DNA of 64,000 nucleotides, from assembly GCA_035529595.1 (NCBI GenBank), contig DATKWK010000035.1:49067-113066 (forward strand), read 5' to 3'. The stretch comes from Candidatus Bathyarchaeia archaeon (lineage in GTDB: Bacteria; Patescibacteriota; Microgenomatia; PFEM01; JAFGMK01). The position numbers and the translations under genes were made by a program. Positions 6,574-18,171 of this stretch are shown here, one piece after another. The stretch's first letter is position 1. Every line of letters starts with the position of its first letter. The notes beneath the pieces are model-generated. The model was not told the DNA's origin. It saw only the letters and a program-made list of their open reading frames with translations, and made no database searches.

Positions 6574-6678
6574 GGTGTCTTACCCTTGACACCTCGGTCA
6601 TCCGATGTAAACGGACAAATCCACGCTAGGCCCCCAAATAGCGTGATCATAAAAAACACAAATAATCGAGCTATTTCC
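6564..6678. repeat. Copy 1 of a ~115-nt hairpin-rich direct repeat.
   Basis: About 85-90% identical to 9020..9138. It contains the near-palindrome CACCTTCAAGGTG, a GGTGTC...GACACC stem and a CACGCTA...TAGCGTG stem. Confidence 0.6.
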
Positions 6679-6721
6679 ATAATTGAGCGTATATTAACAA
6701 AACCGAACTAGTTTAAAAGGC

Positions 6722-6945
6722 TCGCCGGAGGCTAGGTAAATGTGGCGGCTTGCTTAGTTTATGAACCAGCCGCCACTCGATTGGTAGCCCAGTCTCCGCT
6801 GCAGTCGGGGCGGGCCAACACGATCCCGATTGGAAAAAGGTTGGAATTTTTCTATAATAGGCCACAGAAAGATAATCTTGTTTGCCTGCCGGAAAATTCG
6901 CCAGCGCGATGGCGGGCGTGCGGATCGATAAAAAGAGCTTTGTAG
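6722..6945. ncRNA. Candidate structured RNA or regulatory element of unknown class.
   Basis: Local GC is far above the flanks. There is a 9-bp perfect stem GTGGCGGCT...AGCCGCCAC (6760-6794) plus further GC stems (CGCC...GGCG). The 67-aa ORF 6742..6945 is arbitrary and has no RBS. Confidence 0.25.
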
Positions 6946-7007
6946 ATTATTTATATTAATTACTTTCTTTCAAAAAGAAAACGCAAAAAATTTACATCTA
7001 TAGATAA

Positions 7008-7673
7008 ATGAATACAAATCCCAAGGCAAAACGAATTTTATGCTACGGCGACTCCTATACTTGGGGCTATGTTCCCGACACCAATCATCAAAGACTTCCT
7101 TCAGATAAAAGATGGACCGGTTTGTTACAGATAAACCTAGGTGATAATTTTGAAATTATTGAAGAAGGGCTAAACAGCAGAACCTTAAATAGCAAAGATG
7201 CTCGTCCAGGAAAAGAAGGCCGGAATGGAAAAGAATACTTGATTCCTTGCCTTGATTCTCACGATCCTGTTGATTTGGTTATTCTTGTATTGGGAACCAA
7301 TGAACTAAAAGACTCTTTCGACACAACAATAGAAGAAATAGGAAAAATTATCGAAGAGGATTATGTCCAAGTAATACTAAATCGTAAATCGCAATTTCGT
7401 GATACCACCCCCCAGCTTTTACTAATTTCACCACCCCTAATTGATAACACTAAAGAATATGCCAAGCAAAGATATTCGAATTCAAAAGTAAAGAATAAAG
7501 CCCTAGCTAGTCTTTATGAAAAAATATCTATCAAGAACAATTGCTATTTCCTGGATTCCTCACAACTTGTTAAAGTAGGCACAGACGGGGTTCATTTAGA
7601 CGCCGATAATCACAAGAAACTTGGTGAGGTAATAACCGAAAAGGCTTTAAATGTTTTTAGGGGGAGGAAATAA
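7008..7673 (+). CDS. SGNH/GDSL-family hydrolase (esterase/lipase).
   Basis: GDS(x) block CYGDSYTWG near the N-terminus. Also the GTNE block and the DGVHLD (DxxH) catalytic motif. Confidence 0.8.
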   Translation: MNTNPKAKRILCYGDSYTWGYVPDTNHQRLPSDKRWTGLLQINLGDNFEIIEEGLNSRTLNSKDARPGKEGRNGKEYLIPCLDSHDPVDLVILVLGTNELKDSFDTTIEEIGKIIEEDYVQVILNRKSQFRDTTPQLLLISPPLIDNTKEYAKQRYSNSKVKNKALASLYEKISIKNNCYFLDSSQLVKVGTDGVHLDADNHKKLGEVITEKALNVFRGRK

Positions 7674-7677
7674 GCTA

Positions 7678-8220
7678 ATGGATTCAAAATTTGAAATTCT
7701 AGATAGTGTTGATAGGCAAGGAAACGTTATTGGCCAAGCTACTAGGAAAGAGTTTCATCACAATCCAAAGCTAATTCATCAAGTCGCCCACTGCTGGATT
7801 TTTAACAAAAAAGGCCAAATTCTCTGGCAGCAAAGATCTCTAAAAAAAGATCTGTCCCCCGGCTATTGGGATATGTCTTGCGGCGACCATGTACCAACTG
7901 GTGAAACACCAGAAAGAACTCTCAAAAGAGAGCTTGAAGAAGAACTAGGCTTAACTGATGTAAATTTTAAGTTGGTTGATAAATATATTCAGGGTAATGA
8001 ACAACAAACAGAACTAATCTATTTATATTACGCCATAGTTGATAAACCAGCAGAAGAATTTAGTCTTCAGGAGGAAGAAGTTGAAAAAGTAATTTGGATA
8101 GATGTTCAAGAAGCCCAAATGAAATATGTCAAAAACGAACTTGAATCGACCGAATGGGTAGTTTCTCAAGTATCAAGAATCTTGCAAAAGGTTTTTAGCG
8201 AAAGAAAAAGTGAAGGATAA
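7678..8220 (+). CDS. Nudix hydrolase resembling type-1 isopentenyl-diphosphate isomerase (Idi).
   Basis: Nudix box GETPERTLKRELEEELGL. The stretch HQVAHCWIFNKKGQILWQQRSLKKDLSPGYWDMSCGDHV parallels E. coli Idi H-AFS-WLFN-KGQLL..RR...K..WPG.W.NS.CGHP. I place the start at ATG 7678 after GGGGGAGG; the track's longer ORF starts at 7651. Confidence 0.65.
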   Translation: MDSKFEILDSVDRQGNVIGQATRKEFHHNPKLIHQVAHCWIFNKKGQILWQQRSLKKDLSPGYWDMSCGDHVPTGETPERTLKRELEEELGLTDVNFKLVDKYIQGNEQQTELIYLYYAIVDKPAEEFSLQEEEVEKVIWIDVQEAQMKYVKNELESTEWVVSQVSRILQKVFSERKSEG

Positions 8221-8854
8221 AACTTACCAGTATTTACTTTTGGATTGGGATGGTTGCTTGGCGGATACTCTTTCCATTTGGATGGCCGCTTACAAAAATA
8301 TTTTTAAGGTATTTGGTCTTATTCCAGCTGAAAAAGAGATTGTTGGCATTTTTGGTGATTGGCAAGGAGCCAGCAAATTGGGAGTCAAAGATAATGATCT
8401 TTTTTTCAAAAAACTCCTGGTTGAGGTAAATGCCAATCTCCCTTTTGCCAAACTTCACCAGGGAGTAAAAAAGACCTTGGTCGAACTTACTAAAAGAAGT
8501 AAAAAATTAGCCCTAGTGACTTCTTCTAAATCAGCCTCAGTCCTTCCAGCTTTAAAAAATTTAAAAGTCCAAAAGATATTTCAAGCAATTCTGACTGAGG
8601 AAAGGGTTACCCATCACAAACCTCACCCGGAAATAGTAGATAAAGCGATTGCCGCTTTGGGTGGAAATAAAGACCAGGCTTTGATTATCGGTGATGGACA
8701 AAAAGATATTTTGGCAGGTCAAAACGCAGGGATTGATACTTTGATCTTTTATCCTCAAATCAATAGCCGCTTTTACAGTCTAGACAGCTTGAAGAAATTA
8801 AAACCTGACTATTTTATCCGAGATTTTAAGGCTGTTTTGGAGATTATAAACTAA
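8210..8854 (+). CDS. HAD-superfamily hydrolase, phosphatase or beta-phosphoglucomutase-like.
   Basis: Motif I LLDWDGCLADT (DxDG). Also the K...GDG motif. The GTG start overlaps the Nudix stop. Confidence 0.75.
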   Translation: MKDKTYQYLLLDWDGCLADTLSIWMAAYKNIFKVFGLIPAEKEIVGIFGDWQGASKLGVKDNDLFFKKLLVEVNANLPFAKLHQGVKKTLVELTKRSKKLALVTSSKSASVLPALKNLKVQKIFQAILTEERVTHHKPHPEIVDKAIAALGGNKDQALIIGDGQKDILAGQNAGIDTLIFYPQINSRFYSLDSLKKLKPDYFIRDFKAVLEIIN

Positions 8855-8855
8855 G

Positions 8856-9019
8856 ATGAAAGTCAAAATTAGGAAAGCCACCAGTACGGATTTTAAGATC
8901 TTTCAAAATCTTAATACCAAGCTCTTTTTTTATGATAAAAAATTTGACCCCGAACTTGATCTGAAATGGCCGAACAAGAAAGTAGGAGTTAGTTACTATC
9001 AGGATCTGCTTAAAGAAAA
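8856..9019 (+). pseudogene. N-terminal fragment of a GNAT acetyltransferase, truncated where repeat copy 2 begins.
   Basis: MKVKIRKATSTDFKIFQNL is a typical GNAT start. The reading frame then runs into the repeat sequence and ends after 73 aa. Confidence 0.35.
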
Positions 9020-9138
9020 TAATAGTTTAACACACCTTCAAGGTGTCTTATCCTTGACACCTCGGTCATCCAGATAAATCCAGGCTAGGCCCTTAAATAG
9101 CGTGAAATCATAAAAAACACGAATAATCAAGCTATTTC
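9020..9138. repeat. Copy 2 of the ~115-nt hairpin-rich direct repeat.
   Basis: Aligns with 6564..6678 (ACACCTTCAAGGTGTCTTA.CCTTGACACCTCGGTCATCC...AAATAGCGTG...CATAAAAAACAC.AATAATC.AGCTATTTC). Confidence 0.6.
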
Positions 9139-9142
9139 GTAG

Positions 9143-9160
9143 GTGACCCCACAGGGAAAT
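9143..9160 (-). repeat. Degenerate copy of the tRNA-Glu 3' end. It is a candidate far att site (attR-like) for the tRNA-Glu island.
   Basis: GTGACCCCACAGGGAAAT matches plus-strand 12261.. GTGACCCCACGGGGAATC at 16 of 18 positions in the same orientation. I estimate a chance match in 64 kb at about 0.003. Confidence 0.4.
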
Positions 9161-9320
9161 ACCTCAAACACCATCTCAGTCTATCTTTTAACCACCTATC
9201 AGAAATTCAATGGGTATTATCTCCCCCAGTCGATCCAATTTCCTTTATCAATTTAGGTAAATTTGCTAAAATCATTTCATGGGCAAGATAGTGAGTCTGA
9301 AAGATTTAAAATAAAAGAGA

Positions 9321-9842
9321 TTGCCAAAGCCTGTCGTCTTTACTGGTGGTACCTTTGATCTTTTTCATAATGGTCATGCAGAATTCTTGCGGCTATGTAA
9401 AAGTTTTGGTCAAACTTTGGTGGTTTTAGTTTCTAATGATCGGCGGGTAAAGGACAGAAAGGGTTCTTCTAGACCTGTTATTGGAGAAAAAGATAGGTTG
9501 AAATTAGTTAGTTACCTGAAATTTGTTGATTATGCTTTTTTAGGTGGCAGTCTTAGATGTGAAGATAAAAAATTGTGTGCGGCTGTTAAGGCGGACATTT
9601 TAGTTTTGTCTGACGAAAATAAGCAAGAGAAGATGGCTTATTTAAAAAAAAGCTTTAGCAAGGAAGGCCTGGCGAAAGAGATTAAGGTGAAGTTTGTGCC
9701 AGCCAAGTTTTATTCGGCAAGTCTGTCAACTACTAGGTTGATTGAATCAATTAAAAATGGGACGGTTTGGAGGTCGGATATTAAAGAAAAATTTATTAAA
9801 AGAGGTTCATCATCCCACATTGGTAATGAAAAAAGAGCCTAA
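9321..9842 (+). CDS. Cytidylyltransferase-like (HIGH-motif) nucleotidyltransferase.
   Basis: FTGGTFDLFHNGH is the (T/H)xGH nucleotidyltransferase signature near the N-terminus. The ORF has a TTG start. Confidence 0.65.
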   Translation: MPKPVVFTGGTFDLFHNGHAEFLRLCKSFGQTLVVLVSNDRRVKDRKGSSRPVIGEKDRLKLVSYLKFVDYAFLGGSLRCEDKKLCAAVKADILVLSDENKQEKMAYLKKSFSKEGLAKEIKVKFVPAKFYSASLSTTRLIESIKNGTVWRSDIKEKFIKRGSSSHIGNEKRA

Positions 9843-9990
9843 ATAAACTAGACTCTCTTATCATTGTCAGATACCAGTTCTGACTACGAACTACCAACAG
9901 CTTATATTATACCAAGAGAATACTACGATACCTACCACCTAGTTTTTTCGCATTATGATATGGATGTTAAACTTGGTAGAATAGGACTTA

Positions 9991-10236
9991 ATGCAAACCA
10001 AAGACGAAAACATCAATCAGATTCCAACCCTCAAGCAAGCCTTGGACAAACTTATGACTTCTGGTACAGTCGTGGGGCAAATATCGGCTCCGATCTCATT
10101 CGAGGACGATTCGATCATCTTCGATAATTCACCACTATCAGCCGTAAAGTCCCTCAAAGTCAATCTGTACTCAACTGAAACAGAGGAAATGGGAATTCTC
10201 CACAAACTTCATACTATGACCAGGAGTGTAGAATAA
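9991..10236 (+). CDS. Small hypothetical ORF. It overlaps out of frame with ORF 9864..10127 and may be a decayed gene.
   Basis: 81 aa with no motif. An antisense ORF of equal size is also present. Confidence 0.15.
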   Translation: MQTKDENINQIPTLKQALDKLMTSGTVVGQISAPISFEDDSIIFDNSPLSAVKSLKVNLYSTETEEMGILHKLHTMTRSVE

Positions 10237-10238
10237 GT

Positions 10239-10805
10239 TTATCGTTTACTTTGTCTTGCAGCTTCAATGGCGAATCTGGAGCGATAATCTCCAGGATACG
10301 GACTCCAGCCAAACCCCATTTCGATAATCCCACTGAAATACTGCTGTGTATCAGGCGATAGTGTCGTGAAGTTGTCTATTAACAACCCCAAACCAGGATC
10401 ACTTTTATTGCTCGCAAGCATAAGCTGAAAAGCAAATGGCGGGTATGCAATCTCCTCGACCCATCTCCATATTTTTAACTTGGTATCAATTCGCAGTTGT
10501 GGGCCTTGGATTCTGGCTCTTGGTCCGAAATACAAAAACATTCCTAGTTCCATGCCCGAAGGAATCGCTTCCGTGGATTTTTCCAAAATAATTCGTTTTA
10601 TAGCGGGATACCTACCAGCCAAATCCCATGAACCACTCAAACTGCACATGCACGATAATACCTGTCGCACAAAGGCTCCAGGCTTGACCGCTCCATCTTT
10701 CTTGCTACCGAATGTGACATTCTCCCCAAAAGGCCCGACTGTGTTGTTTAATTGGGGAATAACTCCAGAACCGAAACCATTGATAAACTTATTTGCCTTT
10801 GCCAC
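10239..10805 (-). CDS. Hypothetical protein, the fourth and last gene of the TIR-like cassette.
   Basis: 188 aa with a GTG start 35 nt after the HNH gene stop, on the same strand. No motif recognised. The reading frame is open upstream into the HNH gene's 3' end (...TGKLYGEEYKNW-VAKANKF). Confidence 0.45.
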   Translation of the reverse strand: MAKANKFINGFGSGVIPQLNNTVGPFGENVTFGSKKDGAVKPGAFVRQVLSCMCSLSGSWDLAGRYPAIKRIILEKSTEAIPSGMELGMFLYFGPRARIQGPQLRIDTKLKIWRWVEEIAYPPFAFQLMLASNKSDPGLGLLIDNFTTLSPDTQQYFSGIIEMGFGWSPYPGDYRSRFAIEAARQSKR

Positions 10806-10840
10806 CCAGTTTTTGTATTCTTCCCCATAAAGTTTTCCAG

Positions 10841-11212
10841 TCAGTGAGTTGCAATCCCTACAGAGGGTATAACCAAAAATGCCCCCTGTTCAATTAAATG
10901 TTTTGCGTTTGGATTTTCTTCAAGCCGATCTCTCAACCAGTCGTCAAATGAAAGATGAGTGAGTCGCTCTTTATTTCCACTCGCTCTTGGTGGAATATGC
11001 TCTTTTGTCAGATTGGTAACTTTCCCACACAAACGGCATTGTCCTTGTAAGGGTCGTCTGGGAAGCATGGCAACTGTATCTTCAGAAGAAATATCGCCAT
11101 TGACTGCGATCTTTACATAACTGGAAGGAGCTGCTTGTAAAGCTTCATCAAAAAGTCGTTTTACTTCAGGGTCAGTTGGATCAATGTCTTTGGCCACTAT
11201 TTTCCAGCTCAT
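10841..11212 (-). CDS. HNH-like endonuclease domain protein.
   Basis: The zinc-finger/His-Me pattern CRLCGKVTNLTKEHIPPRASGN matches C-x2-C...(D/E)H-x2-P...G.N. Confidence 0.5.
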   Translation of the reverse strand: MSWKIVAKDIDPTDPEVKRLFDEALQAAPSSYVKIAVNGDISSEDTVAMLPRRPLQGQCRLCGKVTNLTKEHIPPRASGNKERLTHLSFDDWLRDRLEENPNAKHLIEQGAFLVIPSVGIATH

Positions 11213-11233
11213 ATTAAAATTAAGTCTATCTCG

Positions 11234-11773
11234 TTAATGAGTTGGCAAACTACTTACTCCGCATAGCAAGGCCAGTCCGAGAATCACATATACAATGCCA
11301 AACGCCCAAGGGACAAAAAGCTCGACATGAGAGAATGGAAAATATTTGTTATTGTCTTTTCCTTTGCCCAAGATGTCCCACTCATGTTTGTATATTGCCA
11401 AAGGGAGCTGTTTTTCAATGTCATGCAGGACATTGAACTTGCCAGTATTGAGTTGTTTATAAGATCTGATCAAAAACCAAAATATAACACAGATTATGAT
11501 GCCTACAAAGGCCACCATGGCTTTAATCCAAGCGTAACCCTCAAGGATTCTATACTGAATCGAAAGACCAATCAGTGAGATTAAGGCGGTGTTAATGGTG
11601 ATGAAGTAGTTGTTTGCGTTCTGTCGGCGGTCACTGATTTTCTCAATGCTCTCAATATAAAGTTTATACTGCTCCAGGTAGTGATCCTTATACTTTGATC
11701 CGTACTGCTTCTCCGTTTTGACAAATAGGTCGCTCATAGTTTGTAAATCCGAAAGCCATAGGCAGAAAGTCAA
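11234..11773 (-). CDS. Small multi-TM membrane protein. It is a candidate membrane effector with SLATT-like topology; this is not confirmed.
   Basis: N-terminal ~45-aa soluble region (MSDLFVKTEKQYGSKYKDHYLEQYKLYIESIEKISDRRQ), then two adjacent TM helices (FITINTALISLIGLSIQY and WIKAMVAFVGIIICVIFWFLI) and a third C-terminal TM helix. The likely start is ATG 11737; the track's TTG at 11773 abuts the upstream stop. Confidence 0.5.
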   Translation of the reverse strand: MTFCLWLSDLQTMSDLFVKTEKQYGSKYKDHYLEQYKLYIESIEKISDRRQNANNYFITINTALISLIGLSIQYRILEGYAWIKAMVAFVGIIICVIFWFLIRSYKQLNTGKFNVLHDIEKQLPLAIYKHEWDILGKGKDNNKYFPFSHVELFVPWAFGIVYVILGLALLCGVSSLPTH

Positions 11774-12154
11774 TCAAAGGGAATTGATAAAATTGGCGAT
11801 GCCATCCCAGCTCCACTCAATAACTTTATAGCCATCCAATTCGGCAGGGACTGATCCTTTATCATCTTTGTGTATATGCACTCCCAACATCGGCACACCT
11901 TCTTCGTCTGCACACTGCATTTCCCACTTGGCCCCATCAGCGTTCCAGGTTTTCTTGCTGATCAAAGCAATTACAGCATCACAACTCTTAATCCGTTCCC
12001 TGCATTTGGTTTTCCATGAACTGTCCCAAGGTTCTTTAACGGACATATCAGTAAATTCAAAAGGACTCCGTTTATCTTTGCCCTGTTGAACCAAAAAATC
12101 TCTGGCGTATTCGTCCTCAATGGCGAAGCTGATAAAAACTCGTTTGTTGCTCAT
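11774..12154 (-). CDS. TIR-like domain protein of the DUF1863 / MTH538-type, ThsB-like.
   Basis: KRVFISFAIEDEYARDFLVQQ matches the canonical VFISF..(E/D).. TIR start. CDAVIALISKKTW...KWEMQCADEEGVPMLGVHIH parallels the DUF1863 core (V.VLIG......SKWV.WEI..A.E....I..V). Confidence 0.55.
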   Translation of the reverse strand: MSNKRVFISFAIEDEYARDFLVQQGKDKRSPFEFTDMSVKEPWDSSWKTKCRERIKSCDAVIALISKKTWNADGAKWEMQCADEEGVPMLGVHIHKDDKGSVPAELDGYKVIEWSWDGIANFINSL

Positions 12155-12169
12155 AGTATATAGCTGCTT

Positions 12170-12198
12170 TCGGGTTTAATTATACTCTTATACAAGCC
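12170..12198 (-). promoter_or_regulatory. Sigma70-like promoter for the cassette.
   Basis: On the minus strand TTGATC, a 17-nt spacer, then TATAAT lie about 15 nt upstream of the TIR-like gene's ATG. Confidence 0.4.
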
Positions 12199-12260
12199 AG
12201 GGATCAACGAAAAGGGGACGGTTCTCAAACAGCCTCATAATTCGTAAAAGTCGGGACTTG

Positions 12261-12333
12261 TGACCCCACGGGGAATCGAACCCCGATTTTCAGGATGAAA
12301 ACCTGATGTCCTAAGCCATTAGACGATGGGGCC
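12261..12333 (-). tRNA. tRNA-Glu (anticodon UUC).
   Basis: 73-nt cloverleaf GGCCCCA/TGGGGTC acceptor with a G-U pair. T-arm CGGGG-TTCGATT-CCCCG, anticodon loop TTTTCAT, D-arm TCGTCTAATGGCTTAGGACA typical of tRNA-Glu. CCA is not encoded. Confidence 0.9.
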
Positions 12334-12482
12334 TAATGTCTGAAAAAATCAAAAAAAGTTTTGCTTATTTTAGCAGAAAGGCCTTGATACAAGCAAGACA
12401 AAGATAATCTTTTCATTCAATCATACATAATTTTGGGTCCAGTATTTTCCGTTAATCGAGAATCTGTTAAAATCAAACCGTA

Positions 12483-13217
12483 GTGACAACAAAGACTTAC
12501 GATATCCAAATCAAAACAAAGATTAGAATACCCGTTAAGATAGCTCTCGCCAGCGATTTCCACTTGAAACAAAATTCAAGCTCTCTAATTAGAGATTTAG
12601 TACGGACCTTGAATAAAGAACCAGCGGATCTGATCTTTCTTGTCGGTGATTTTGTTCAAAACCATCGGAAACTGCACTTTCTTGACCCTCTTTCCGAGAT
12701 AAGGAATAAAAATATTTTTGCCGTCTTGGGAAACCATGACTTTAACATCAATCTACCTTGGCAAAAGCCAGATTACTTGATAGCGAAGCTAATAGAAAAC
12801 TACTTAAAAAATATGGGTATTAAAGTTTTACGCAACCAGAAGACAAGCGTAAAGATAAGTAACCAATCAATTTCTATAACCGGTATAGACGATCTCTGGA
12901 CCAGGCAACCCTTCCCTGCAGATTTTAGACAGACAGACATCCTTTTATCACATAACCCGGACATCATTCTTTATCCACCAGTGACATCATCACTGATTCT
13001 CTCAGGCCATACTCACGGCGGATCAGTCAGCTTTTACCCGATCAGGCGGCTTTTCTCTTTCTTAAATTGTCGCGTGGGCAGAAGAATTAGCAATGGTCTT
13101 TTTAGCTATGAAAAGCGCCAGGTTTTTATCACGCCCGGAATCGGCAAACTGATGGGCTTGATAAGAAAAGGGGTCAAACCAGAAATTAGCTATCTAACGC
13201 TAAATTGTAGGTATTAA
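12483..13217 (+). CDS. Calcineurin-like metallophosphoesterase.
   Basis: Motifs DFH (ASDFHL), GDFV, GNHD and GHTHGG. Confidence 0.75.
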   Translation: MTTKTYDIQIKTKIRIPVKIALASDFHLKQNSSSLIRDLVRTLNKEPADLIFLVGDFVQNHRKLHFLDPLSEIRNKNIFAVLGNHDFNINLPWQKPDYLIAKLIENYLKNMGIKVLRNQKTSVKISNQSISITGIDDLWTRQPFPADFRQTDILLSHNPDIILYPPVTSSLILSGHTHGGSVSFYPIRRLFSFLNCRVGRRISNGLFSYEKRQVFITPGIGKLMGLIRKGVKPEISYLTLNCRY

Positions 13218-13266
13218 ACTTCATATTTAAAGTGTATATCGAACTGAAGACAGATTCTTATTGGGA

Positions 13267-15582
13267 TCAGTCTGTTATCAGCTTGTCAAGAATTTCTACT
13301 TCTTTACTTAGGGTTTCATCGCCGATTACTTGTTGCTCAGCCAGCAGATAACGTTTAAAAGCAGCAATTAAGTCTTTATAGCATTGGGAAACTTTAAGCG
13401 GAACGGAAGTTCTCTCCCATTTACTCAACTGGATTTTTTCAGGAATCAGAATTCCGCTAATTGAGTTGATTGAAGGCTCTTCTACTTCCTCATTCATCTC
13501 CCTGCTCTCCCGTTCATCACTTATCCAGATTTTCATCAGATTCGCGTAGCGGCCCAGGAGTATTGCCTTACGAATTCCACTGTTTTGGTAAAAATCCGCC
13601 TCTGAATCTGCAATCAGCGCATTTTTATAATTGCTAAAATATTTACCTTCTCTGTCAGTATACCTGGCCGTTAGTTTGAGCGCCGGCGAGTTAGAATCAG
13701 TCAGTTTTTTTAACTTCAAAAGAACGATGCCGCCTTTCACTCCTTCATCACGCCTTTCCGACGGAAATAGCGTGTTAACTTTCATAATTTCACCTGTTGC
13801 CAGATCTGCTTCCGGTGAACCGTAGACCTTCTCAATGTCAAAGTCAGCTGACGTGACTTCAAGGGCCAAATCAAATACTAACGGCGTAACCATATATTCA
13901 AACCCTTCGTCCATTCTGTACTGGAAATCTTTAGCCGAATGAATAGCATAGTAATTCGATCCCTTGATTTTGGTTATGAATTCAACCAGCTCGGTATTAA
14001 AATCTACGCCAATTCCGATAAAGGTAGTATAGATGACCTCATCTGCATTAATCTTAGTTAATCCTAATAAGCCTTTTTCATCAAGCATCCCGGTATTGGG
14101 TTGGGCATCAGTTAAGAATATAATTCTATTTTCGTAATCTTTTTTACTCAGGTCTTTAAACGCCTGTAAAAGCTGGGTCGCTTCTTGATAACCCGACTCC
14201 ATGTTGGTACTGCCGCTATCGGTAATTTCCAGTACATGCTCCTTTAGTCTGGTAATATTGGTTGTCTCGACTAAGCGCATTGGTTTGGCGACATAACCAA
14301 TGTCGTTATAAAGAACCATTCCATACCTATCCCCCGGCTTAAGATGGTCAAGCAAGGCGACCACAGATTTGTTGGCAATCGCCATTTTGGTCTCATTTGA
14401 ATCTTCAGCCTCCTCAAGTTCTTGTCTATTTCCAAATTGGTCATAGTAATATTTATTAAACGGCGAACCCATTGACGCGGAGATATCAAGAACAATGGCT
14501 AAATTGAGTTTTTTTCTCTCAAATTCTGATTGCTTTATGCCTGAATTGAGACCAACGGCAAGATAATATTCTTTTCCTTGAGACAAAGGATCTTTACTTA
14601 TGGCATAACTGTATGATGGGCAAAACAGCTCAGAGCAAGGCTCAGCTTGGCCGGTTTCAAAATAATAATCATAGAAAAGGCCTTCATAGGTCACGTCAGT
14701 CACCAGCGGCAGGTAACCGTTTTGAATGTTAGCCCGGAAGTTATTGATGTCCTTGGCACCGCCGGTTGATAAACCGATATTTTCCGACATATCAGGCATC
14801 GATTTTAAGTTTGATAGAGGGGCAAATTGTCCCGCAGGAGATAAACCACCGCCGCCGCCGGCTTTAGGTAACGTATTATATTGAAACTGTAATAGATTGA
14901 CTCCAAAAAGCAGATCTCGCAACAGAAAAATTATAATAACCGTAAACAAAAAACCACTAGCAGCTAAATTAAAATTAATTGATATGCTTTTAAGCAATTT
15001 TCTCTTATAGCCCCTAGTGTCTTTCTTAAGTAATTTCCGACTTACCCAAATTAAAAACATTGAAGGTATATAAACAATGGTAATTAGCCAGGAAATCACC
15101 ATTCCTGTCGCTACTACTACCACTGCTCCGGTAATAGAAACCTCATACCAGTTGAAATTTAAGGCAAGATACAGGGAAAAAACTACCGATACCAGACCAA
15201 TAAAAAAGTAGCCCAGTTTCTTTCTTAATTGTTCCTTTGTTCCGAAAAATAAGTTCGGCCTGAATTTCCTGATAACAGAGCCGGCAAATCGATATAGAAG
15301 ATACCAGAGCGAAAGCGGTATCAGGGCAAATAAAACTGAAAAAGCCAATAACAACATTATTTTAACCGGTGTTAAGCCAGACCAGATTTCCTGAACAGAT
15401 AAAATCCTGTCAAGGTTAACACTAGGAACATATTGCCAATCATCTGTTTGTCCGGAGCCAAGAGGAATATTGATTTTAGAAAGAAACTGCTGTGAAATAA
15501 ATGATACTAAAACGATCAAAATTGCACCGATGACAATAAAGTTCCACTTATTTGCAAAGGGTTTATTATTTTTCGCTTCCAT
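13267..15582 (-). CDS. Multi-TM membrane protein with a von Willebrand factor A domain.
   Basis: Several N-terminal TM helices. MIDAS motif LAIVLDISASMGS (DxSxS), a later T/D pair and a Gly5 run. Confidence 0.65.
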   Translation of the reverse strand: MEAKNNKPFANKWNFIVIGAILIVLVSFISQQFLSKINIPLGSGQTDDWQYVPSVNLDRILSVQEIWSGLTPVKIMLLLAFSVLFALIPLSLWYLLYRFAGSVIRKFRPNLFFGTKEQLRKKLGYFFIGLVSVVFSLYLALNFNWYEVSITGAVVVVATGMVISWLITIVYIPSMFLIWVSRKLLKKDTRGYKRKLLKSISINFNLAASGFLFTVIIIFLLRDLLFGVNLLQFQYNTLPKAGGGGGLSPAGQFAPLSNLKSMPDMSENIGLSTGGAKDINNFRANIQNGYLPLVTDVTYEGLFYDYYFETGQAEPCSELFCPSYSYAISKDPLSQGKEYYLAVGLNSGIKQSEFERKKLNLAIVLDISASMGSPFNKYYYDQFGNRQELEEAEDSNETKMAIANKSVVALLDHLKPGDRYGMVLYNDIGYVAKPMRLVETTNITRLKEHVLEITDSGSTNMESGYQEATQLLQAFKDLSKKDYENRIIFLTDAQPNTGMLDEKGLLGLTKINADEVIYTTFIGIGVDFNTELVEFITKIKGSNYYAIHSAKDFQYRMDEGFEYMVTPLVFDLALEVTSADFDIEKVYGSPEADLATGEIMKVNTLFPSERRDEGVKGGIVLLKLKKLTDSNSPALKLTARYTDREGKYFSNYKNALIADSEADFYQNSGIRKAILLGRYANLMKIWISDERESREMNEEVEEPSINSISGILIPEKIQLSKWERTSVPLKVSQCYKDLIAAFKRYLLAEQQVIGDETLSKEVEILDKLITD

Positions 15583-15629
15583 CCAATCTGATTATTACAC
15601 TAATTGTCCCGTAAGTTCAAGAAACATTT

Positions 15630-16745
15630 TTATTCCCGTTCATAAAATGGTTTCTTAACTACTGCAGCTGTTCGTAGCTGATCATGTATTGTAACTTCTA
15701 CCTGGGTTCCTATTTTAGAATAGCCTCTTTCTACGTATGCGAGGGCAATAGCCCGATTGAGAGTCGGCGACAACATTCCGCTAGTTACCATACCTACCAT
15801 GCAATCACTAACACTAACGGGATAATTTGACCTGGCAATGCCTTTACCAACCATCTGCAAACCAACTAAAACAATGGGACAGCCTTCATGCTTGATTCGT
15901 ATTAAAGCATCCCTGCCTATGAAGTGATCTTTTTTAAACCCGACCGCCCAACCTAAGCCGGCCTGAATAGGATTAATGTCGGGCCCAAGCTCATGGCCAT
16001 AAAGCGGCATACCCGCTTCAAGTCGCAGAGAATCCCGGGCGCCAAGGCCGACCGGCACCGCGCCATTGGCAAGAATCTCATCCCATAACTTCCCCGCATC
16101 GCCTTCAAAAAAAATTTCAAGCCCTTTCTCGCCGGTATATCCGGTACGGGCAACCAAGGCCATTTGCCCGTCTATATCAATCTCAACTATATGATGTCGT
16201 TCCAAAGAAGCAAGGTTAAATCCCGTAAGCGGTTGCAGCACTGCTTCCGCATTTGGACCCTGCAAAGCTAGAGCGCTTCTTCCTCCCGAAATGTCTTCAA
16301 TTTTAACTTGCCGATAAGGACCGCGTTCTTTTTGGTCTTGAAGCCAATCTAAATCAGTCTGCCTGGTTCCGGCATTAACAACAACAAAATACTCTTCATC
16401 AGCTAACCGATAGACAAAAACATCATCAACTGTTCCGCCTTTGGCTTTACAGACTAAAGAATATTTTGCTTCTCCCACCTCTAAACCCGAAAGATCCCTC
16501 GTCATCACTCTCTGAAGGTAAGGCAACGCCTCCGGACCTTCGACGACAACTTGTCCCATGTGACAGATATCAAAAAGACCGGCCGCTGTCCGAACAGCCT
16601 GATGTTCCCTTAATATTGATGTATACCAAATTGGCATTTCCCAATCACCGAAAGTAGCCATATGTGCACCTAAAGCTAGATGGCGATCATGCAGGTTAGT
16701 TGTTTGAACCGGTGACTTAGACGCTAGTCTTTCAACTTTACTCAT
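15630..16745 (-). CDS. gcvT: Glycine cleavage system T protein (aminomethyltransferase).
   Basis: N-terminus MSKVERLASKSPVQTTNLHDRHLALGAHMATFGDWEMPIWY... and the folate-binding region are typical of GcvT. Length 371 aa. Confidence 0.85.
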   Translation of the reverse strand: MSKVERLASKSPVQTTNLHDRHLALGAHMATFGDWEMPIWYTSILREHQAVRTAAGLFDICHMGQVVVEGPEALPYLQRVMTRDLSGLEVGEAKYSLVCKAKGGTVDDVFVYRLADEEYFVVVNAGTRQTDLDWLQDQKERGPYRQVKIEDISGGRSALALQGPNAEAVLQPLTGFNLASLERHHIVEIDIDGQMALVARTGYTGEKGLEIFFEGDAGKLWDEILANGAVPVGLGARDSLRLEAGMPLYGHELGPDINPIQAGLGWAVGFKKDHFIGRDALIRIKHEGCPIVLVGLQMVGKGIARSNYPVSVSDCMVGMVTSGMLSPTLNRAIALAYVERGYSKIGTQVEVTIHDQLRTAAVVKKPFYERE

Positions 16746-16888
16746 TTAACCTCCCTTAACGGCAAAATTATTCTAATCAGTAAATTGTAAAAAATCATAT
16801 CATTTCTTATAGGTTTATGTCAAACAGAAAATTGACTCTATTTTTCCAATCTATCCGTATTATAATAATTATTTAACAATAAGTTTTT

Positions 16889-17518
16889 ATGTGCGCCCGT
16901 TACGTTTGCTTTGACAGCGAAGATTTTAAAAAAGTCTTTGGTACCATCAATACCTGCCCTTCTTTCCAGTCCTACAACATCGGCCCCGGGACGATAAATC
17001 CAACCATTCTCAGCCAAAGCCCGAGACAGATTGTAATGATGAAATGGGGTTTGATCCCTTTCTGGGCCAAAGATCCCAATATCGGTTACAAAACTATCAA
17101 TGCCCGGGCTGAGGGTATTGAAAACAAACCAGCGTTGTCTCATCCCGACTAACGGCTTTTATGAATGGAAAACCTTAAAATTGAAAGAACGGCCGGAAGA
17201 GATACCCTGGTTCATTGGCCTTAAGGATAGGGATATCTTCGCTTTGGCTGGAATTTTTGATATCTGAAAGATGCCGAGGAAAAAGAATTTTGGAGCTATT
17301 CAATTATCACTACTGAACCTAATAATCTTGTTTCGAATATTCATGACCGAATGCCGGCAATTCTTGATCAAAAGAACGAAGACTCTTGGCTTGAACAAAC
17401 AACTCCCTTACCAAAAATATTAGACCTATTAAAACCCTATCCGGCCGAAGAAATGGTCAGTTGGCCGGTTTCCAACCCACCTTGGGATCCAGATCAATTT
17501 GAAGAAGGTGTTAAGTGA
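16889..17518 (+). pseudogene. SOS-response-associated peptidase (SRAP/YedK, DUF159) disrupted by two compensating frameshifts.
   Basis: MCARYV... is the canonical MCGR(F/Y) start. Three frames continue the homology: phase 2 at 16889-17152, phase 0 at 17151-17267 (NGFYEWKTLK...IPWFIGLKDRDIFALAGI vs YedK DGWFEWKK...PFFIYRADGQPIFMAAIG), and phase 2 again at 17264-17518. The second shift sits at a T5 run. Confidence 0.65.
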
Positions 17519-17691
17519 TTAAACATCTTGCCTACTGCCTAAAATCAACTGACGAAAAAGACAAACAAGTCCTCTCAATTGATTCCCAACTTCAAGAATT
17601 AAAAGACTTTGCCAAAAAAGAAAATCTCCAGATAGTAGAAATAATTCATACACGCCGGGTGTGTAATTATATTGACACCTTGGGTATTTAA
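17515..17691 (+). pseudogene. N-terminal fragment (58 aa) of a serine recombinase/integrase.
   Basis: VIKHLAYCLKSTDEKDKQVLSIDSQLQELKDFAKKENLQIVEIIHT parallels large serine recombinase starts (K.AIY.RVST.EQ...SID.Q...L..YA...G..IV). The catalytic Ser is present. The ORF stops before the rest of the catalytic domain. Its GTG overlaps the SRAP stop (GTGA). Confidence 0.5.
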
Positions 17692-17717
17692 TGACTTTCG
17701 AGGAGTATTTTTCATCT

Positions 17718-17738
17718 GTGAGCCCGGGAGGGATCGAA
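17718..17738 (-). repeat. 21-nt duplication of the tRNA-Lys 3' end, an att-like direct repeat.
   Basis: GTGAGCCCGGGAGGGATCGAA is identical to 17887..17907, which covers the T-arm and 3' acceptor stem of tRNA-Lys. Confidence 0.6.
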
Positions 17739-17887
17739 GACGCCTCGTAAGGCTTTACATAAATGCTAGGCAGTAAACGTTATCCAAGATAATTTTCGAA
17801 GTCTCAATCGTTACCTTGCATTATCAGAGTTTCTCGCCCTCACCCGGCTCAACAAAAACCTCCCCAAAAAGGGGAATTTTTGTTGAG

Positions 17888-17959
17888 TGAGCCCGGGAGG
17901 GATCGAACCTCCGACACCTTGCTTAAAAGGCAAGTGCTCTACCACTGAGCTACGGGCCC
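17888..17959 (-). tRNA. tRNA-Lys (anticodon UUU).
   Basis: 72-nt cloverleaf GGGCCCG/CGGGCTC acceptor. D-arm GCTCAGTGGTAGAGC, anticodon stem-loop CTTGC-CTTTTAA-GCAAG, T-arm GGAGG-TTCGATC-CCTCC. Confidence 0.9.
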
Positions 17960-18171
17960 GAGTAAACATTCGCCTAGTAAACGAGTATTTAAACTTCCTG
18001 AATTATACTAAAAGCTTAAAAATCAATCAATCGGAAAGATATTTTTTAAGAGATAAAATTTAACGATCAAAAGGTAGTTACGTAAAATTATTATAACCTT
18101 GATGCTTTTACAATCCGGAGGTGAGATGGATAAGCCAATTCATACTCTTTCATTTGGTCTTGAAGTAAGTT

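What the first reader, a model, noticed from the sequence alone, without database searches (positions are those of the whole stretch)
16889..17959. Decayed integrative element at tRNA-Lys: frameshifted YedK-like SRAP gene, truncated serine recombinase and a 21-nt tRNA 3'-end duplication
tRNA-Lys (17888-17959, minus) is followed 150 nt away by an exact 21-nt copy of its own T-arm/acceptor 3' half (17718-17738). Beside it is a 58-codon N-terminal stub of a serine recombinase, with the catalytic Ser region KST present and the rest missing. Its GTG overlaps (GTGA) the stop of a DUF159/SRAP gene. The SRAP homology continues through three reading frames (+1 shift near 17150, then -1 back at a T5 run near 17258). 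SRAP proteins (MC[GA]R start, abasic-site crosslinking) are frequently carried on mobile elements. Compensating frameshifts could be real pseudogenisation, assembly errors at homopolymers, or programmed frameshifting.
Basis: seen in the sequence. Interest (0 to 1): 0.6.

Follow-up and report, generated by a model that had tools for sequence, protein, structure and literature searches.

The report
Dead serine-integrase element beside tRNA-Lys
Next to an intact tRNA-Lys gene lie the deletion-riddled remains of one or two small mobile elements, which are ordinary genomic debris except that their integrase is a serine recombinase of a clade that targets tRNA genes, a job usually credited to tyrosine integrases.

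Summary
tRNA-Lys(UUU) at 17887-17959 (minus strand) is intact. An exact 21-nt copy of its 3' end lies at 17718-17738, and no shuffle of the window produced such a pair. The SRAP gene is a young pseudogene with a ~26-nt deletion at ~17130, a 1-nt deletion in a TGG codon at 17266 (not the T5 run), and probably a 12-nt in-frame deletion. It keeps 46 of 49 invariant residues. Only 44 recombinase codons are homologous, two invariant residues are mutated (Y4H, R9L), and about 1.35 kb is missing. The ORF fragments recur in public JGI, NCBI, ENA and Logan assemblies. One Logan contig is 100% identical across both lesions, so assembly error is unlikely.

The stub belongs to a clade of 500-590-aa large serine recombinases. 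Their 3' end runs antisense into a complete tRNA gene in all six genomic lineages I could inspect, and three viral contigs carry a tRNA 3' mimic there instead. Read this way, 17645-17776 is a recombinase tail, the 21-nt core and an element arm with its stop codon. A second possible tail remnant (17793-17886) runs into the real tRNA.

Best model: two related elements inserted in succession at tRNA-Lys and both decayed by deletion. Nothing here still functions except the tRNA. I found no intact relative at tRNA-Lys and no far end of the element.

The parts
16889..17518 (+). SRAP (YedK/HMCES-family, PF02586) pseudogene. It has three segments in two frames: 16889-~17131 (frame 0), ~17130-17264 (frame +1) and 17267-17518 (frame 0). 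The Cys2 codon is present.
   Evidence: Pfam E = 2e-57 on the reconstruction. PDB 2f20 E = 5e-30 and YedK/HMCES hits. tblastn against homologues. 46 of 49 invariant columns are kept. phrog_1599 E = 3e-47.
17126..17138 (+). SRAP lesion 1: junction of a ~26-nt deletion (AAA C|CAG CGT TGT). It removes about eight conserved residues, including an invariant Pro, and shifts the frame by +1. The frame-0 stop follows at 17150-17152.
   Evidence: Seven-residue gap in the HMMER alignment to 2f20. Alignment to 12 homologues. Read from the sequence.
17262..17269 (+). SRAP lesion 2: loss of one G from the invariant Trp codon (ATC TG- AAA). It creates a TGA in the +1 frame and returns the homology to frame 0.
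   Evidence: Homologues read AGI(F/Y)D(I/V)WKDAEGKE here. Read from the sequence.
17468..17480 (+). Probable 12-nt in-frame deletion in the SRAP C-terminus (PVS|NPP). The nearly invariant xRVN is missing.
   Evidence: Alignment to A3. Inference: divergence rather than deletion is not excluded.
17515..17646 (+). N-terminal 44 codons of a large serine recombinase (LSR1). The GTG start overlaps the SRAP stop (GTGA). The catalytic Ser is present, but invariant Arg9 is Leu and Tyr4 is His. The ORF runs on out of homology to a stop at 17689-17691.
   Evidence: PF00239 E = 0.023. 73-80% identity to P0122-P0125. A profile search returned 2522 relatives, and three of the full-length ones scanned all have Resolvase+Recombinase+Zn_ribbon domains. 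tblastn homology ends at 17646, and there is no other recombinase remnant in the 64 kb. Invariant positions checked.
17645..17717 (+). Probable C-terminal tail remnant of LSR1 (...FIHAGCVIILTPWVFNDFRGVFFIC), in a different frame from the stub. This implies an internal deletion of about 1.35 kb. A 7-bp hairpin at 17649-17665 sits at the junction.
   Evidence: Frame translation. The last 17 nt resemble the flank of the real tRNA in the same frame, GVFFIC vs GEFLLS. Hairpin. The assignment as a tail is an inference by analogy with relatives.
17718..17738 (+). Exact 21-nt copy of the tRNA-Lys 3' end (T-loop, T-stem 3' strand, acceptor 3' strand, discriminator plus one base): the att core, copy A.
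   Evidence: In 185,579 species-representative genomes the 21-mer occurs only 12 times, always as the 3' end of a complete tRNA-Lys. It has no match in IMG/VR.
17739..17776 (+). Element-type arm that follows core copy A. It keeps a degenerate T-stem complement (CCTC after a ~4-nt insertion) and closes the tail ORF (...EPGRDRRRLVRLYINARQ*, stop at 17774-17776). Together with 17645-17738 it looks like an attP-type or hybrid attL junction.
   Evidence: ORF 17672-17776 and translations. Analogy with the P' arms of relatives, which encode the native (I/V)RT(Y/H)F C-terminus from a degenerate T-loop. Inference.
17793..17886 (+). Possible tail remnant of a second recombinase gene (LSR2). The frame FSKSQSLPCIIRVSRPHPAQQKPPQKGEFLLS is open and continues antisense through the real tRNA (EPGRDRTSDTLLKRQVLYH*) to a stop at 17946-17948.
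   Evidence: Translation. In all six genomic lineages of relatives the recombinase ORF likewise runs into the tRNA. Weak on its own: 31 open codons are not significant.
17850..17885 (-). 15-bp hairpin plus U-run starting 3 nt after the tRNA 3' end: the tRNA terminator, lying inside the 148-nt spacer.
   Evidence: Terminator scan. RNA fold -48.1 kcal/mol, z = -4.25.
17887..17959 (-). Intact tRNA-Lys(UUU). Its 3'-terminal 21 nt (17887-17907) are att core copy B. CCA is not encoded.
   Evidence: ARAGORN. Rfam RF00005 73.1 bits. Cloverleaf fold.
18002..18030 (-). Promoter-like site (TTGATT-17-TATAAT) upstream of tRNA-Lys.
   Evidence: Consensus scan only.

Best explanation
The region 16889-17886 is non-functional debris of site-specific integrative element(s). 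These elements used a large serine recombinase (LSR) to insert into the 3' end of tRNA-Lys(UUU). Only the tRNA gene, with its own promoter-like site and terminator, still works.

How such elements work (inferred from intact relatives). The LSR gene sits at the end of the element and points at the tRNA. Its last codons are encoded by the antisense of a tRNA 3'-end mimic, and that mimic is the attP site. Recombination with the tRNA gene fuses the LSR tail to the real tRNA and rebuilds the tRNA 3' end from element DNA. The other att arm is carried to the far end of the element.

History proposed for this window (inferred).
1. Element E1 carried SRAP as the gene immediately upstream of, and overlapping, its integrase LSR1. 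It sat against tRNA-Lys.
2. A second, related element E2 inserted into the regenerated tRNA. It crossed over at the T-loop edge of the 21-nt identity block. This pushed E1, together with its copy of the 21-nt core (17718-17738), 169 nt away from the tRNA.
3. Deletions then removed almost all of E2, leaving 148 nt: its far arm with a stop codon, and about 94 nt of its LSR tail that includes the tRNA terminator.
4. Deletions also removed about 1.35 kb from the inside of LSR1, and 26 nt, 1 nt and probably 12 nt from SRAP. Point substitutions hit invariant LSR residues (Y4H, R9L).

Shown: the parts, the lesions, their recurrence in several public assemblies, the stub's clade membership, and that clade's constant association with tRNA genes. 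Inferred: the order of events, the two-element history, and that SRAP was cargo.
For: 1. Parts and lesions are as listed above.

2. Recurrence in public assemblies.
- A Logan contig is 100% identical over window 5630-17916.
- The antisense 101-aa ORF that spans lesion 1 is recorded from JGI, Logan and ENA on 3 contigs, and the stub on 5 contigs.
- The 87-aa SRAP N-terminal fragment is in NCBI as HUW21940.1.

3. The stub belongs to a clade of 500-590-aa LSRs with Resolvase, Recombinase and Zn-ribbon domains.

4. Every genomic lineage of that clade with usable context has the LSR 3' end convergent with, and overlapping, a complete tRNA.
- tRNA-Phe (L044-L049), tRNA-Gln-UUG (L050), tRNA-Val (L081/L082), tRNA-Ser (L083-L086), tRNA-Gln-CUG (L087).
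- The IMG/VR contig L039 has a complete tRNA-Trp in the same position.
- The IMG/VR contigs L036/L037 (and L033, read by eye) carry only a tRNA 3' mimic there, which is the attP state.

5. Direct repeats of 17-18 nt of the tRNA 3' end delimit islands of 5.3 kb and 8.1 kb in L081 and L050. That is the same scale as the 21-nt repeat here.

6. Within one 90%-identity LSR cluster, the C-terminus after a fixed point switches between a native ...RTYF... end and several different tRNA-antisense ends. This places the crossover at the tRNA 3' end.

7. In the window both core copies are preceded, in the same frame, by similar tail ends (GVFFIC|EPGRDR and GEFLLS|EPGRDR). Copy A is followed by a short arm with a stop codon.

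8. SRAP as cargo.
- It has a 4-nt overlap with the LSR start.
- SRAP matches a phage protein family.
- 30 IMG/VR loci encode homologues.
- The closest homologue sits in an insert between rpsJ and rplC.

9. Successive insertions at one tRNA, leaving fragmented integrases and partial tRNAs, are described for tRNA-proximal islands (bioRxiv 10.1101/2020.12.28.424599).
Against: - I found no relative with an intact element at tRNA-Lys and no empty site. The flanking-gene searches found only distant homologues (<=43% identity) or the gene itself.
- No third copy of the core marks a far end of E1 anywhere in the window.
- The LSR-relative loci I checked for SRAP (L006, L019, L020, L033-L050) have none, and the gene tables of L081-L087 list none. 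The three LSRs found near SRAP genes in viral loci are distant and not adjacent.
- The tail assignments (17645-17717 and 17793-17886) rest on short, lineage-specific sequences. The 11-of-17-nt flank similarity and the 31 open codons are individually weak.
- GC content shows no island signal.
- Copy A could equally be an intact attP of E1 rather than a hybrid attL, so the two-element history is not the only layout consistent with the data.
Confidence: 0.72

Rival explanations
1. There was one LSR element, not two. LSR1 keeps its own intact attP-type 3' end (17645-17776). The neighbouring tail-like flank plus tRNA reflects a second att copy of the same element or a local rearrangement. This would be analogous to relatives that hold both an attR and an extra attP-like copy.
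For: Four lineages of relatives carry two copies of the LSR tail in one locus, one fused to the tRNA and one joined to the native C-terminal arm. An LSR with a native C-terminus occurs on a 303-kb chromosomal contig (P0281).
Against: In those relatives the two copies are inverted and (near-)identical over 101-155 nt. Here they are direct and alike over only 38 nt. No far-end att copy is found within 17.7 kb to the left.
Confidence: 0.18
2. The 21-nt repeat is the scar of a classical tyrosine-integrase island that has since been almost wholly deleted. On this view the serine recombinase stub next to it is an unrelated relic that merely happens to be adjacent.
For: A tRNA 3'-end duplication running from the T-loop to the 3' end is the textbook signature of tyrosine-integrase islands. 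Serine integrases were stated not to be known to target tRNA genes (PMC4383910). A 2026 provirus survey reports that they prefer protein-coding targets (PMC13626063).
Against: The stub's own clade is tRNA-linked in all six genomic lineages inspected, with repeats of the same length class. The sequences in front of both core copies are similar in one reading frame that runs from the recombinase side. There is no tyrosine-recombinase remnant in the spacer.
Confidence: 0.07
3. The frameshifts are sequencing or assembly errors, or are bypassed by programmed frameshifting, and SRAP is functional.
For: The two shifts compensate (26 + 1 = 27 nt), so the N- and C-terminal parts share a frame. The gene keeps 46 of 49 invariant residues.
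Against: - Lesion 1 deletes eight conserved residues including an invariant Pro, and it is not in a repeat or homopolymer.
- Lesion 2 destroys an invariant Trp codon.
- A Logan contig is 100% identical across both lesions, and the ORF fragments made by lesion 1 are on record from JGI, NCBI and ENA assemblies as well.
- There is no slippery heptamer at either site.
- Compensation is expected by chance one time in three.
Confidence: 0.03

Closest known systems
Genomic islands integrated in tRNA genes (Islander/TIGER-type islands, P4/lambdoid-type tyrosine integrases)
   Same: The element targets the 3' part of a tRNA gene and carries a copy of the tRNA 3' end that regenerates the gene. A displaced direct repeat of 14-32 nt is left behind, and the integrase gene sits at the tRNA-proximal end. 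Tandem and degenerate arrays build up at one tRNA.
   Different: The integrase here is a large serine recombinase, not a tyrosine recombinase. In intact relatives the integrase ORF itself runs antisense through the att site and the tRNA. In this window the integrase remnant lies outside the repeat pair, and nothing is functional.
Large serine integrases of phages and ICEs (Bxb1, phiC31, A118, TP901-1, TnpX/TndX, CcrAB)
   Same: The full-length relatives scanned (P0143, P0157, P0183) have the same three-domain architecture: Resolvase catalytic domain, Recombinase domain and zinc ribbon. The N-terminal YxRxS(T) motif region is present in the stub. The gene sits at the element terminus.
   Different: Characterised serine integrases have short cores (about 2 bp) and mostly target protein-coding genes. 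This clade shares 14-32 nt with tRNA 3' ends. The best match among 50,697 deposited phage genomes is only 25-27% identical. The window copy is a 44-codon fragment with two invariant residues mutated.
YedK / HMCES / YoaM SRAP proteins (PF02586)
   Same: There is clear full-length homology. The N-terminal Met-Cys is present, and most invariant positions of the close homologues are kept, including the FYEW and HxRMP stretches. Homologues occur in phage genomes and viral contigs.
   Different: This copy is interrupted by two frame-breaking deletions and lacks an invariant Pro and Trp. It cannot make a full-length protein.
tRNA-proximal islands built by stacked, degenerating elements (tycheposons of Prochlorococcus)
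   Same: New elements insert at the tRNA and push older ones inward. Fragmented integrases and partial tRNAs remain beside the tRNA. A minority of those elements (27 of 937) carry a large serine recombinase.
   Different: The host is a different lineage, apparently a Patescibacteria/CPR-like bacterium. The scale is far smaller (about 1 kb of debris). There is no evidence of replication modules or of recurrent cargo.

Membership tests
SRAP / YedK-HMCES family (PF02586) | Significant full-length match to the family profile | tested here: met
   E = 2.2e-57, residues 1-198 against profile positions 1-209 of 214, on the three-segment reconstruction. PDB relatives 2f20, HMCES and YedK.
SRAP / YedK-HMCES family (PF02586) | N-terminal catalytic Cys2 | tested here: met
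   MCARY is present, and 46 of 49 columns invariant among 12 close homologues are kept. I did not map the family's other catalytic residues individually.
SRAP / YedK-HMCES family (PF02586) | One uninterrupted ORF able to give a full-length protein | tested here: not met
   There are stops at 17150-17152 (frame 0) and 17265-17267 (frame +1). A 26-nt and a 1-nt deletion interrupt the gene. It is a pseudogene of the family, not a working member.
Large serine recombinase (serine integrase) | Resolvase catalytic domain with the invariant Tyr, Arg and Ser of the N-terminal motif | tested here: not met
   Only profile positions 3-36 of 145 are matched, at E = 0.023, below the Pfam cut-off. Ser is present, but invariant Arg9 is Leu and Tyr4 is His.
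Large serine recombinase (serine integrase) | Recombinase domain (PF07508) and zinc ribbon (PF13408) C-terminal to the catalytic domain | tested here: not met
   Homology ends at 17646, and tblastn with nine full-length relatives finds nothing else in the 64 kb. Relatives have all three domains. This is a fragment of a member.
tRNA-integrated genomic island (Islander signature) | An intact tRNA gene plus a displaced fragment of the same tRNA in direct orientation on its 3' side | tested here: met
   The 21 nt at 17887-17907 within the tRNA match 17718-17738. The two copies are direct and unique in the window.
tRNA-integrated genomic island (Islander signature) | An integrase gene and cargo lying between the tRNA and the fragment | tested here: not met
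   Only 148 nt lie between the copies, with no ORF of note. The recombinase remnant and SRAP lie beyond the fragment.
tRNA-integrated genomic island (Islander signature) | Empty site or intact element in related genomes | tested here: inconclusive
   No close relatives were retrievable. The gcvT scan gave <=43% identity, and the DUF4340 search found only itself. The 21-mer is found only in complete tRNA-Lys genes of other phyla.
tRNA-targeting LSR clade (defined here from relatives) | LSR 3' end convergent with a tRNA gene or tRNA 3' mimic, with the ORF reading antisense into it | tested here: met
   Relatives. Window: the stub points at tRNA-Lys, and a tail-like ORF (17645-17776) reads through the 21-nt tRNA copy.
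tRNA-targeting LSR clade (defined here from relatives) | Recombination activity on a tRNA attB | not testable with these tools
   This needs an in vivo or in vitro attP x attB assay with an intact relative.
tRNA (RF00005) | Cloverleaf with anticodon, scoring above the family threshold | tested here: met
   73.1 bits against a gathering score of 29. ARAGORN finds anticodon UUU. MFE cloverleaf.

The most novel reading that the evidence does not exclude
The stub may be a fossil of a so far uncharacterised clade of large serine integrases that specifically target the 3' ends of tRNA genes. At least seven different tRNA genes are involved: Phe, Gln-UUG, Gln-CUG, Val, Ser and Trp in relatives, and Lys here. 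The attP site lies inside the integrase's own last codons, as an antisense tRNA mimic. Integration therefore swaps the enzyme's C-terminus from a conserved ...(I/V)RT(Y/H)F... end to a tRNA-encoded end. In four lineages the gene is also bracketed by 101-155-nt, near-perfect inverted repeats. Flipping the segment between them would switch the gene between the two C-termini. Both predicted protein forms exist in public data for one lineage. That could be a self-contained inversion switch controlling integrase activity or directionality.
Probability: 0.4. Interest if true: 0.65.

Novelty: new variant of a known kind. Interest (0 to 1): 0.4.

Why it matters
The window feature itself is ordinary. 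It shows how deletion grinds down mobile DNA next to a tRNA in a small, streamlined genome, and it flags two ORF fragments that are deposited as genes (HUW21940.1, HUW21942.1) but are really pseudogene pieces.

The wider point is the enzyme family. The reference view in the papers I could read is that tRNA-gene targeting belongs to tyrosine integrases, and that serine integrases use short cores and prefer coding targets (PMC4383910, PMC13626063). A clade of serine integrases with 14-32-nt tRNA-matching att sites embedded in their own coding sequence would extend that view. It would explain some integrase-less or mis-delimited islands at tRNAs in uncultured lineages. It would also offer unidirectional integrases with predictable, conserved landing sites (tRNA genes) for engineering hard-to-transform bacteria.

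I could not show that this has never been described. The tycheposon work reports 27 of 937 tRNA-associated elements with a large serine recombinase.

Tried and rejected
- Synteny in relatives. A gcvT scan of JGI metagenome contigs gave 10 loci, all <=43% identical and none syntenic. A search with the DUF4340 neighbour found only the gene itself. The tRNA-Lys site could therefore not be compared with an empty or an occupied state.
- The 21-mer elsewhere. It has no match in IMG/VR. It has 12 matches in 185,579 species-representative genomes, all at the 3' ends of complete tRNA-Lys genes in Kryptonia and other lineages, and none as a fragment. It is not a dispersed repeat, but it did not lead to an intact element either.
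- A third att copy in the window. Relaxed searches with 12-16-mers allowing 0-2 mismatches found nothing relevant.
- A recurrent SRAP-recombinase module. There is no SRAP in the LSR-relative loci I searched. Among 30 viral SRAP loci, only three have an LSR within 6 kb, and these are distant (21-24% identity) and not adjacent.
- A 381-aa 'cluster mate' of the SRAP C-fragment (P0129/P0130) turned out to be an unrelated CorA of an actinobacterium, which is a clustering artefact.
- The spacer 17500-17990 against deposited phages matched only tRNAs. Rfam found only the tRNA.
- P0157 against deposited phages gave a best match of 25-27% identity.
- Junction patterns for the 'native-end' state of two relatives were not found in IMG/VR.
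- Composition shows no island signal.
- Programmed frameshifting and homopolymer error were considered and rejected (see rivals).
- I first read 'TPWVFNDFRGVFF' as the recombinase's PVFNEM region and then as the RTYF motif. Neither reading is secure, so I call it only a tail remnant.
Full report
**Where the window comes from.** The window is part of a 394,681-bp JGI metagenome contig (3300031566, Ga0307378_10000010). The same population genome has been assembled independently several times. A Logan contig (SRR8554643_27128) is 100% identical to window 5630-17916. The ORF fragments of the region are also on record from JGI, Logan, ENA and NCBI assemblies, on contigs up to 846,852 bp. The NCBI copy is labelled 'Candidatus Bathyarchaeia archaeon'. 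However, the window encodes bacterial DnaE, ribosomal protein L19 and PyrG, and the SRAP gene's best hits are Patescibacteria/CPR.

**Check of the observation: tRNA and repeat.** tRNA-Lys(UUU) lies at 17887-17959 on the minus strand. It folds as a cloverleaf and is followed after 3 nt by a 15-bp terminator hairpin. A promoter-like site lies upstream. The 21-mer GTGAGCCCGGGAGGGATCGAA covers the T-loop, T-stem, acceptor strand, discriminator and one more base. It occurs exactly twice, at 17718-17738 and inside the tRNA at 17887-17907. None of 100 shuffles gave a match even with three mismatches allowed. The similarity continues for 17 nt past the tRNA end, giving 38 nt at 84% identity.

**Check of the observation: SRAP.** The SRAP gene is real: PF02586 at E = 2e-57, with PDB relatives 2f20, HMCES and YedK.
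- The first lesion is at about 17129/17130. It is a deletion of about 26 nt that removes roughly AFRKPIRS, including an invariant Pro.
- The second lesion is the loss of one G from the invariant Trp codon at 17266/17267.
- The T5 run encodes the conserved GIFDI in frame and is innocent.
- A four-residue gap near 17473 is probably a third, in-frame deletion.
- Otherwise 46 of 49 invariant positions are intact, so the inactivation is recent.

**Check of the observation: recombinase stub.** The stub's GTG does overlap the SRAP stop. Only its first 44 codons are homologous to recombinases. Invariant Arg9 is Leu and invariant Tyr4 is His.

**Are the frameshifts artefacts?** Probably not.
- A 26-nt deletion is not a homopolymer error.
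- The Logan contig is 100% identical across both lesions.
- The antisense ORF that spans lesion 1, and the 87-aa N-terminal fragment that ends at the resulting stop, are recorded from JGI, Logan, ENA and NCBI assemblies.
- Programmed frameshifting would have to skip conserved residues at sites with no slippery sequence.
- The fact that 26 + 1 = 27 restores the frame has a one-in-three chance expectation.
I could not inspect reads.

**What the recombinase is.** A profile built from the stub and its nearest fragments found 2522 relatives. The full-length ones are 500-590 aa. The three full-length relatives I scanned (P0143, P0157, P0183) carry the Resolvase, Recombinase and zinc-ribbon domains, so they are large serine recombinases (LSRs). 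No other piece of such a gene exists in the 64 kb. About 1.35 kb of the gene is therefore missing.

**The key result from relatives.** I looked at every lineage of this clade for which enough flanking DNA could be fetched.
- In all six genomic lineages the LSR gene is convergent with a tRNA gene, and its last codons read antisense into or through that tRNA. These are tRNA-Phe (L044-L049), tRNA-Gln-UUG (L050), tRNA-Val (L081/L082), tRNA-Ser (L083-L086) and tRNA-Gln-CUG (L087).
- An IMG/VR contig (L039) has tRNA-Trp in the same position.
- Three other viral contigs (L036 and L037, and L033 read by eye) have no complete tRNA there. They carry a roughly 30-nt mimic of a tRNA 3' end inside the LSR 3' end, which is what an un-integrated attP should look like.
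- Direct repeats of 17-18 nt of the tRNA 3' end lie 5.3 kb and 8.1 kb away in L081 and L050. They delimit small islands with defence or miscellaneous cargo.
- Within one 90%-identity cluster, the protein's C-terminus after a fixed point (...ELISFMA) is either a conserved native end (PLYTEIRTYFVQNG, HFYNEARTNFQQNA) or one of several tRNA-antisense ends. This places the crossover at the tRNA 3' end.
- The native end (I/V)RT(Y/H)F is itself encoded by a degenerate antisense T-loop, TTCGAAC.
- One member (P0143) abuts a NUDIX gene instead, so the rule is not absolute.
- No deposited phage genome has a close relative; the best match is 25-27% identical.

**Re-reading the window.**
- In the frame that begins at 17645, the sequence reads FIHAGCVIILTPWVFNDFRGVFFIC | EPGRDR | RRLVRLYINARQ*. 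That is a tail, the 21-nt tRNA core, and a short arm that keeps a degenerate T-stem complement and ends in a stop at 17774-17776. It has the anatomy of this family's attP-type junction.
- Upstream of the real tRNA, a frame is open from 17793. It reads ...PPQKGEFLLS | EPGRDRTSDTLLKRQVLYH* and ends inside the tRNA. This is the anatomy of the integrated junction.
- The 17-nt flank similarity noted above is the in-frame pair GVFFIC and GEFLLS.
- The terminator hairpin of the tRNA lies within this second tail. L050 shows the same feature, where the hairpin encodes AQKGD.

**Most likely history.** An element E1, with SRAP directly upstream of its integrase, sat against tRNA-Lys. A related element E2 later inserted into the regenerated tRNA, crossing over at the T-loop edge of the 21-nt block. 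This displaced E1 together with its copy of the core. Deletions then reduced E2 to 148 nt, removed the middle of LSR1 with a change of frame, and made three cuts in SRAP.

This is the known pattern of stacked, degenerating elements at a tRNA (bioRxiv 10.1101/2020.12.28.424599). I give about 0.7 to 'relic of LSR-type tRNA-integrating element(s)' and about 0.5 to the specific two-insertion order.

The main alternative is a single element that keeps its own attP-type end next to a second att copy. I cannot exclude it, because relatives do hold two tail copies in one locus.

A classical tyrosine-integrase scar with a coincidental LSR stub is unlikely, given the clade's constant tRNA linkage.

**Is SRAP cargo?** Evidence in favour:
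- The 4-nt overlap with the LSR start.
- A strong match to a phage protein family (phrog_1599).
- Thirty viral contigs with homologues.
- The closest homologue lies in a small insert between rpsJ and rplC.

Evidence against:
- No relative's LSR that I inspected has an SRAP neighbour.
- No far-end att copy was found.
- Composition is flat.

I rate cargo at roughly two to one over host gene.

**Comparison with what is known.** The layout works like a tRNA-integrating genomic island, but the enzyme is of the other recombinase family.
- The Islander paper states that serine integrases are not known to target tRNA genes (PMC4383910).
- A 2017 review describes serine-recombinase elements as having very short repeats and disrupting coding genes (PMC5704250).
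- A 2026 survey of 430,134 proviruses reports that serine integrases prefer coding sequences and have shorter cores (PMC13626063).
- The tycheposon study counts 27 of 937 tRNA-associated elements with a large serine recombinase, without detail in the text I read.

The clade is therefore at least poorly described. I cannot claim it is unknown, because the TIGER paper itself was not readable here.

**Unexplained, in relatives only.** In L044, L050, L081 and L084 the LSR gene is bracketed by inverted repeats of 108, 155, 125 and 101 nt, at 100%, 100%, 100% and 97% identity. The right arm is the LSR tail, up to 4-7 nt inside the tRNA. The left arm lies upstream of the start codon. Read on the other strand, the left arm continues into the conserved native C-terminus. 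Inverting the segment would give the enzyme its native end.

The predicted inverted-state protein of L081 exists exactly in public data (P0289, also P0290), but only on contigs of about 2 kb. The tRNA-fused form is on contigs up to 33 kb. This could be a real switch, or it could be assembly-graph ambiguity. I could not resolve it.

**Verdict.** The thing itself is ordinary genomic debris. Its interest lies in pointing to a tRNA-targeting serine-integrase clade.

Noticed in passing
L044 7844-7951 / 9387-9494; L050 7686-7840 / 9415-9569; L081 9742-9866 / 11400-11524; L084 5923-6023 / 7676-7776: Full-length recombinase genes of the stub's clade are bracketed by 101-155-nt, 97-100% identical inverted repeats. 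One arm is the gene's own tail abutting the tRNA. The other arm lies upstream and continues on the opposite strand into the conserved native C-terminus. Both predicted protein forms exist in public data for one lineage (P0287 vs P0289/P0290). This is either a possible inversion switch or an assembly ambiguity.
   Followed up: partly
window 9143-9158 and 12260-12333: A 15-of-16-nt direct copy of the tRNA-Glu 3' end lies 3.1 kb downstream of tRNA-Glu. The interval holds a ThsB-like TIR protein (11774-12154), an 8xMP protein (11234-11773), small ORFs and a cytidylyltransferase-like gene. It may be a small defence island at a second tRNA. The repeat is weak (E = 0.32).
   Followed up: no
whole window (NCBI HUW21940.1, HUW21942.1): The same contig is deposited in NCBI as a MAG named 'Candidatus Bathyarchaeia archaeon', although it encodes bacterial DnaE, L19 and PyrG and its SRAP is closest to CPR bacteria. 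It is probably mis-binned or mislabelled. Two pseudogene fragments are annotated there as proteins.
   Followed up: partly
L003 5954-8569 and L004 3265-5997: The closest SRAP homologue (P0002, 60% identity) sits with four small hypothetical ORFs in an insert of about 2.6 kb between rpsJ and rplC, genes that normally sit side by side in the ribosomal-protein operon (from my own knowledge, not tested here).
   Followed up: no
L044 9642-9983; L047 4505-5085: GIY-YIG ORFs of 88 aa lie between tRNA-Val and tRNA-Leu, in one copy in L044 and two tandem copies in L047. In L044 a 28-nt duplicate of the tRNA-Val 5' part accompanies the ORF. This looks like a miniature mobile cassette at a tRNA 5' end.
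   Followed up: no
L050 9611-9642 and 9738-9769: A 32-nt copy of the 5' part of tRNA-Gln lies 127 nt upstream of the intact gene. It is a short-period partial tRNA duplication, like the one in the window but on the 5' side.
   Followed up: no
L006 926-1150 and 1423-2473: Another N-terminal stub (59-74 codons) of the same recombinase sub-clade, abutting the stop of a YobF_C-domain gene and followed by an IS3-family transposase. It shows that truncated copies of this gene recur.
   Followed up: partly
L081 6163-6330: An older att-like site lies inside the tRNA-Val island. It consists of a 17-nt copy of the tRNA 3' end, followed about 100 nt later by a plus-strand arm encoding LLV|RFYAQVRTHFQRSCE*, a diverged native recombinase C-terminus.
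   Followed up: partly
protein cluster of window 17351-17518: The 55-aa SRAP C-terminal fragment is filed in one 90%-identity cluster with an unrelated 381-aa CorA transporter (P0129/P0130). This is a clustering artefact that cost one look-up.
   Followed up: yes
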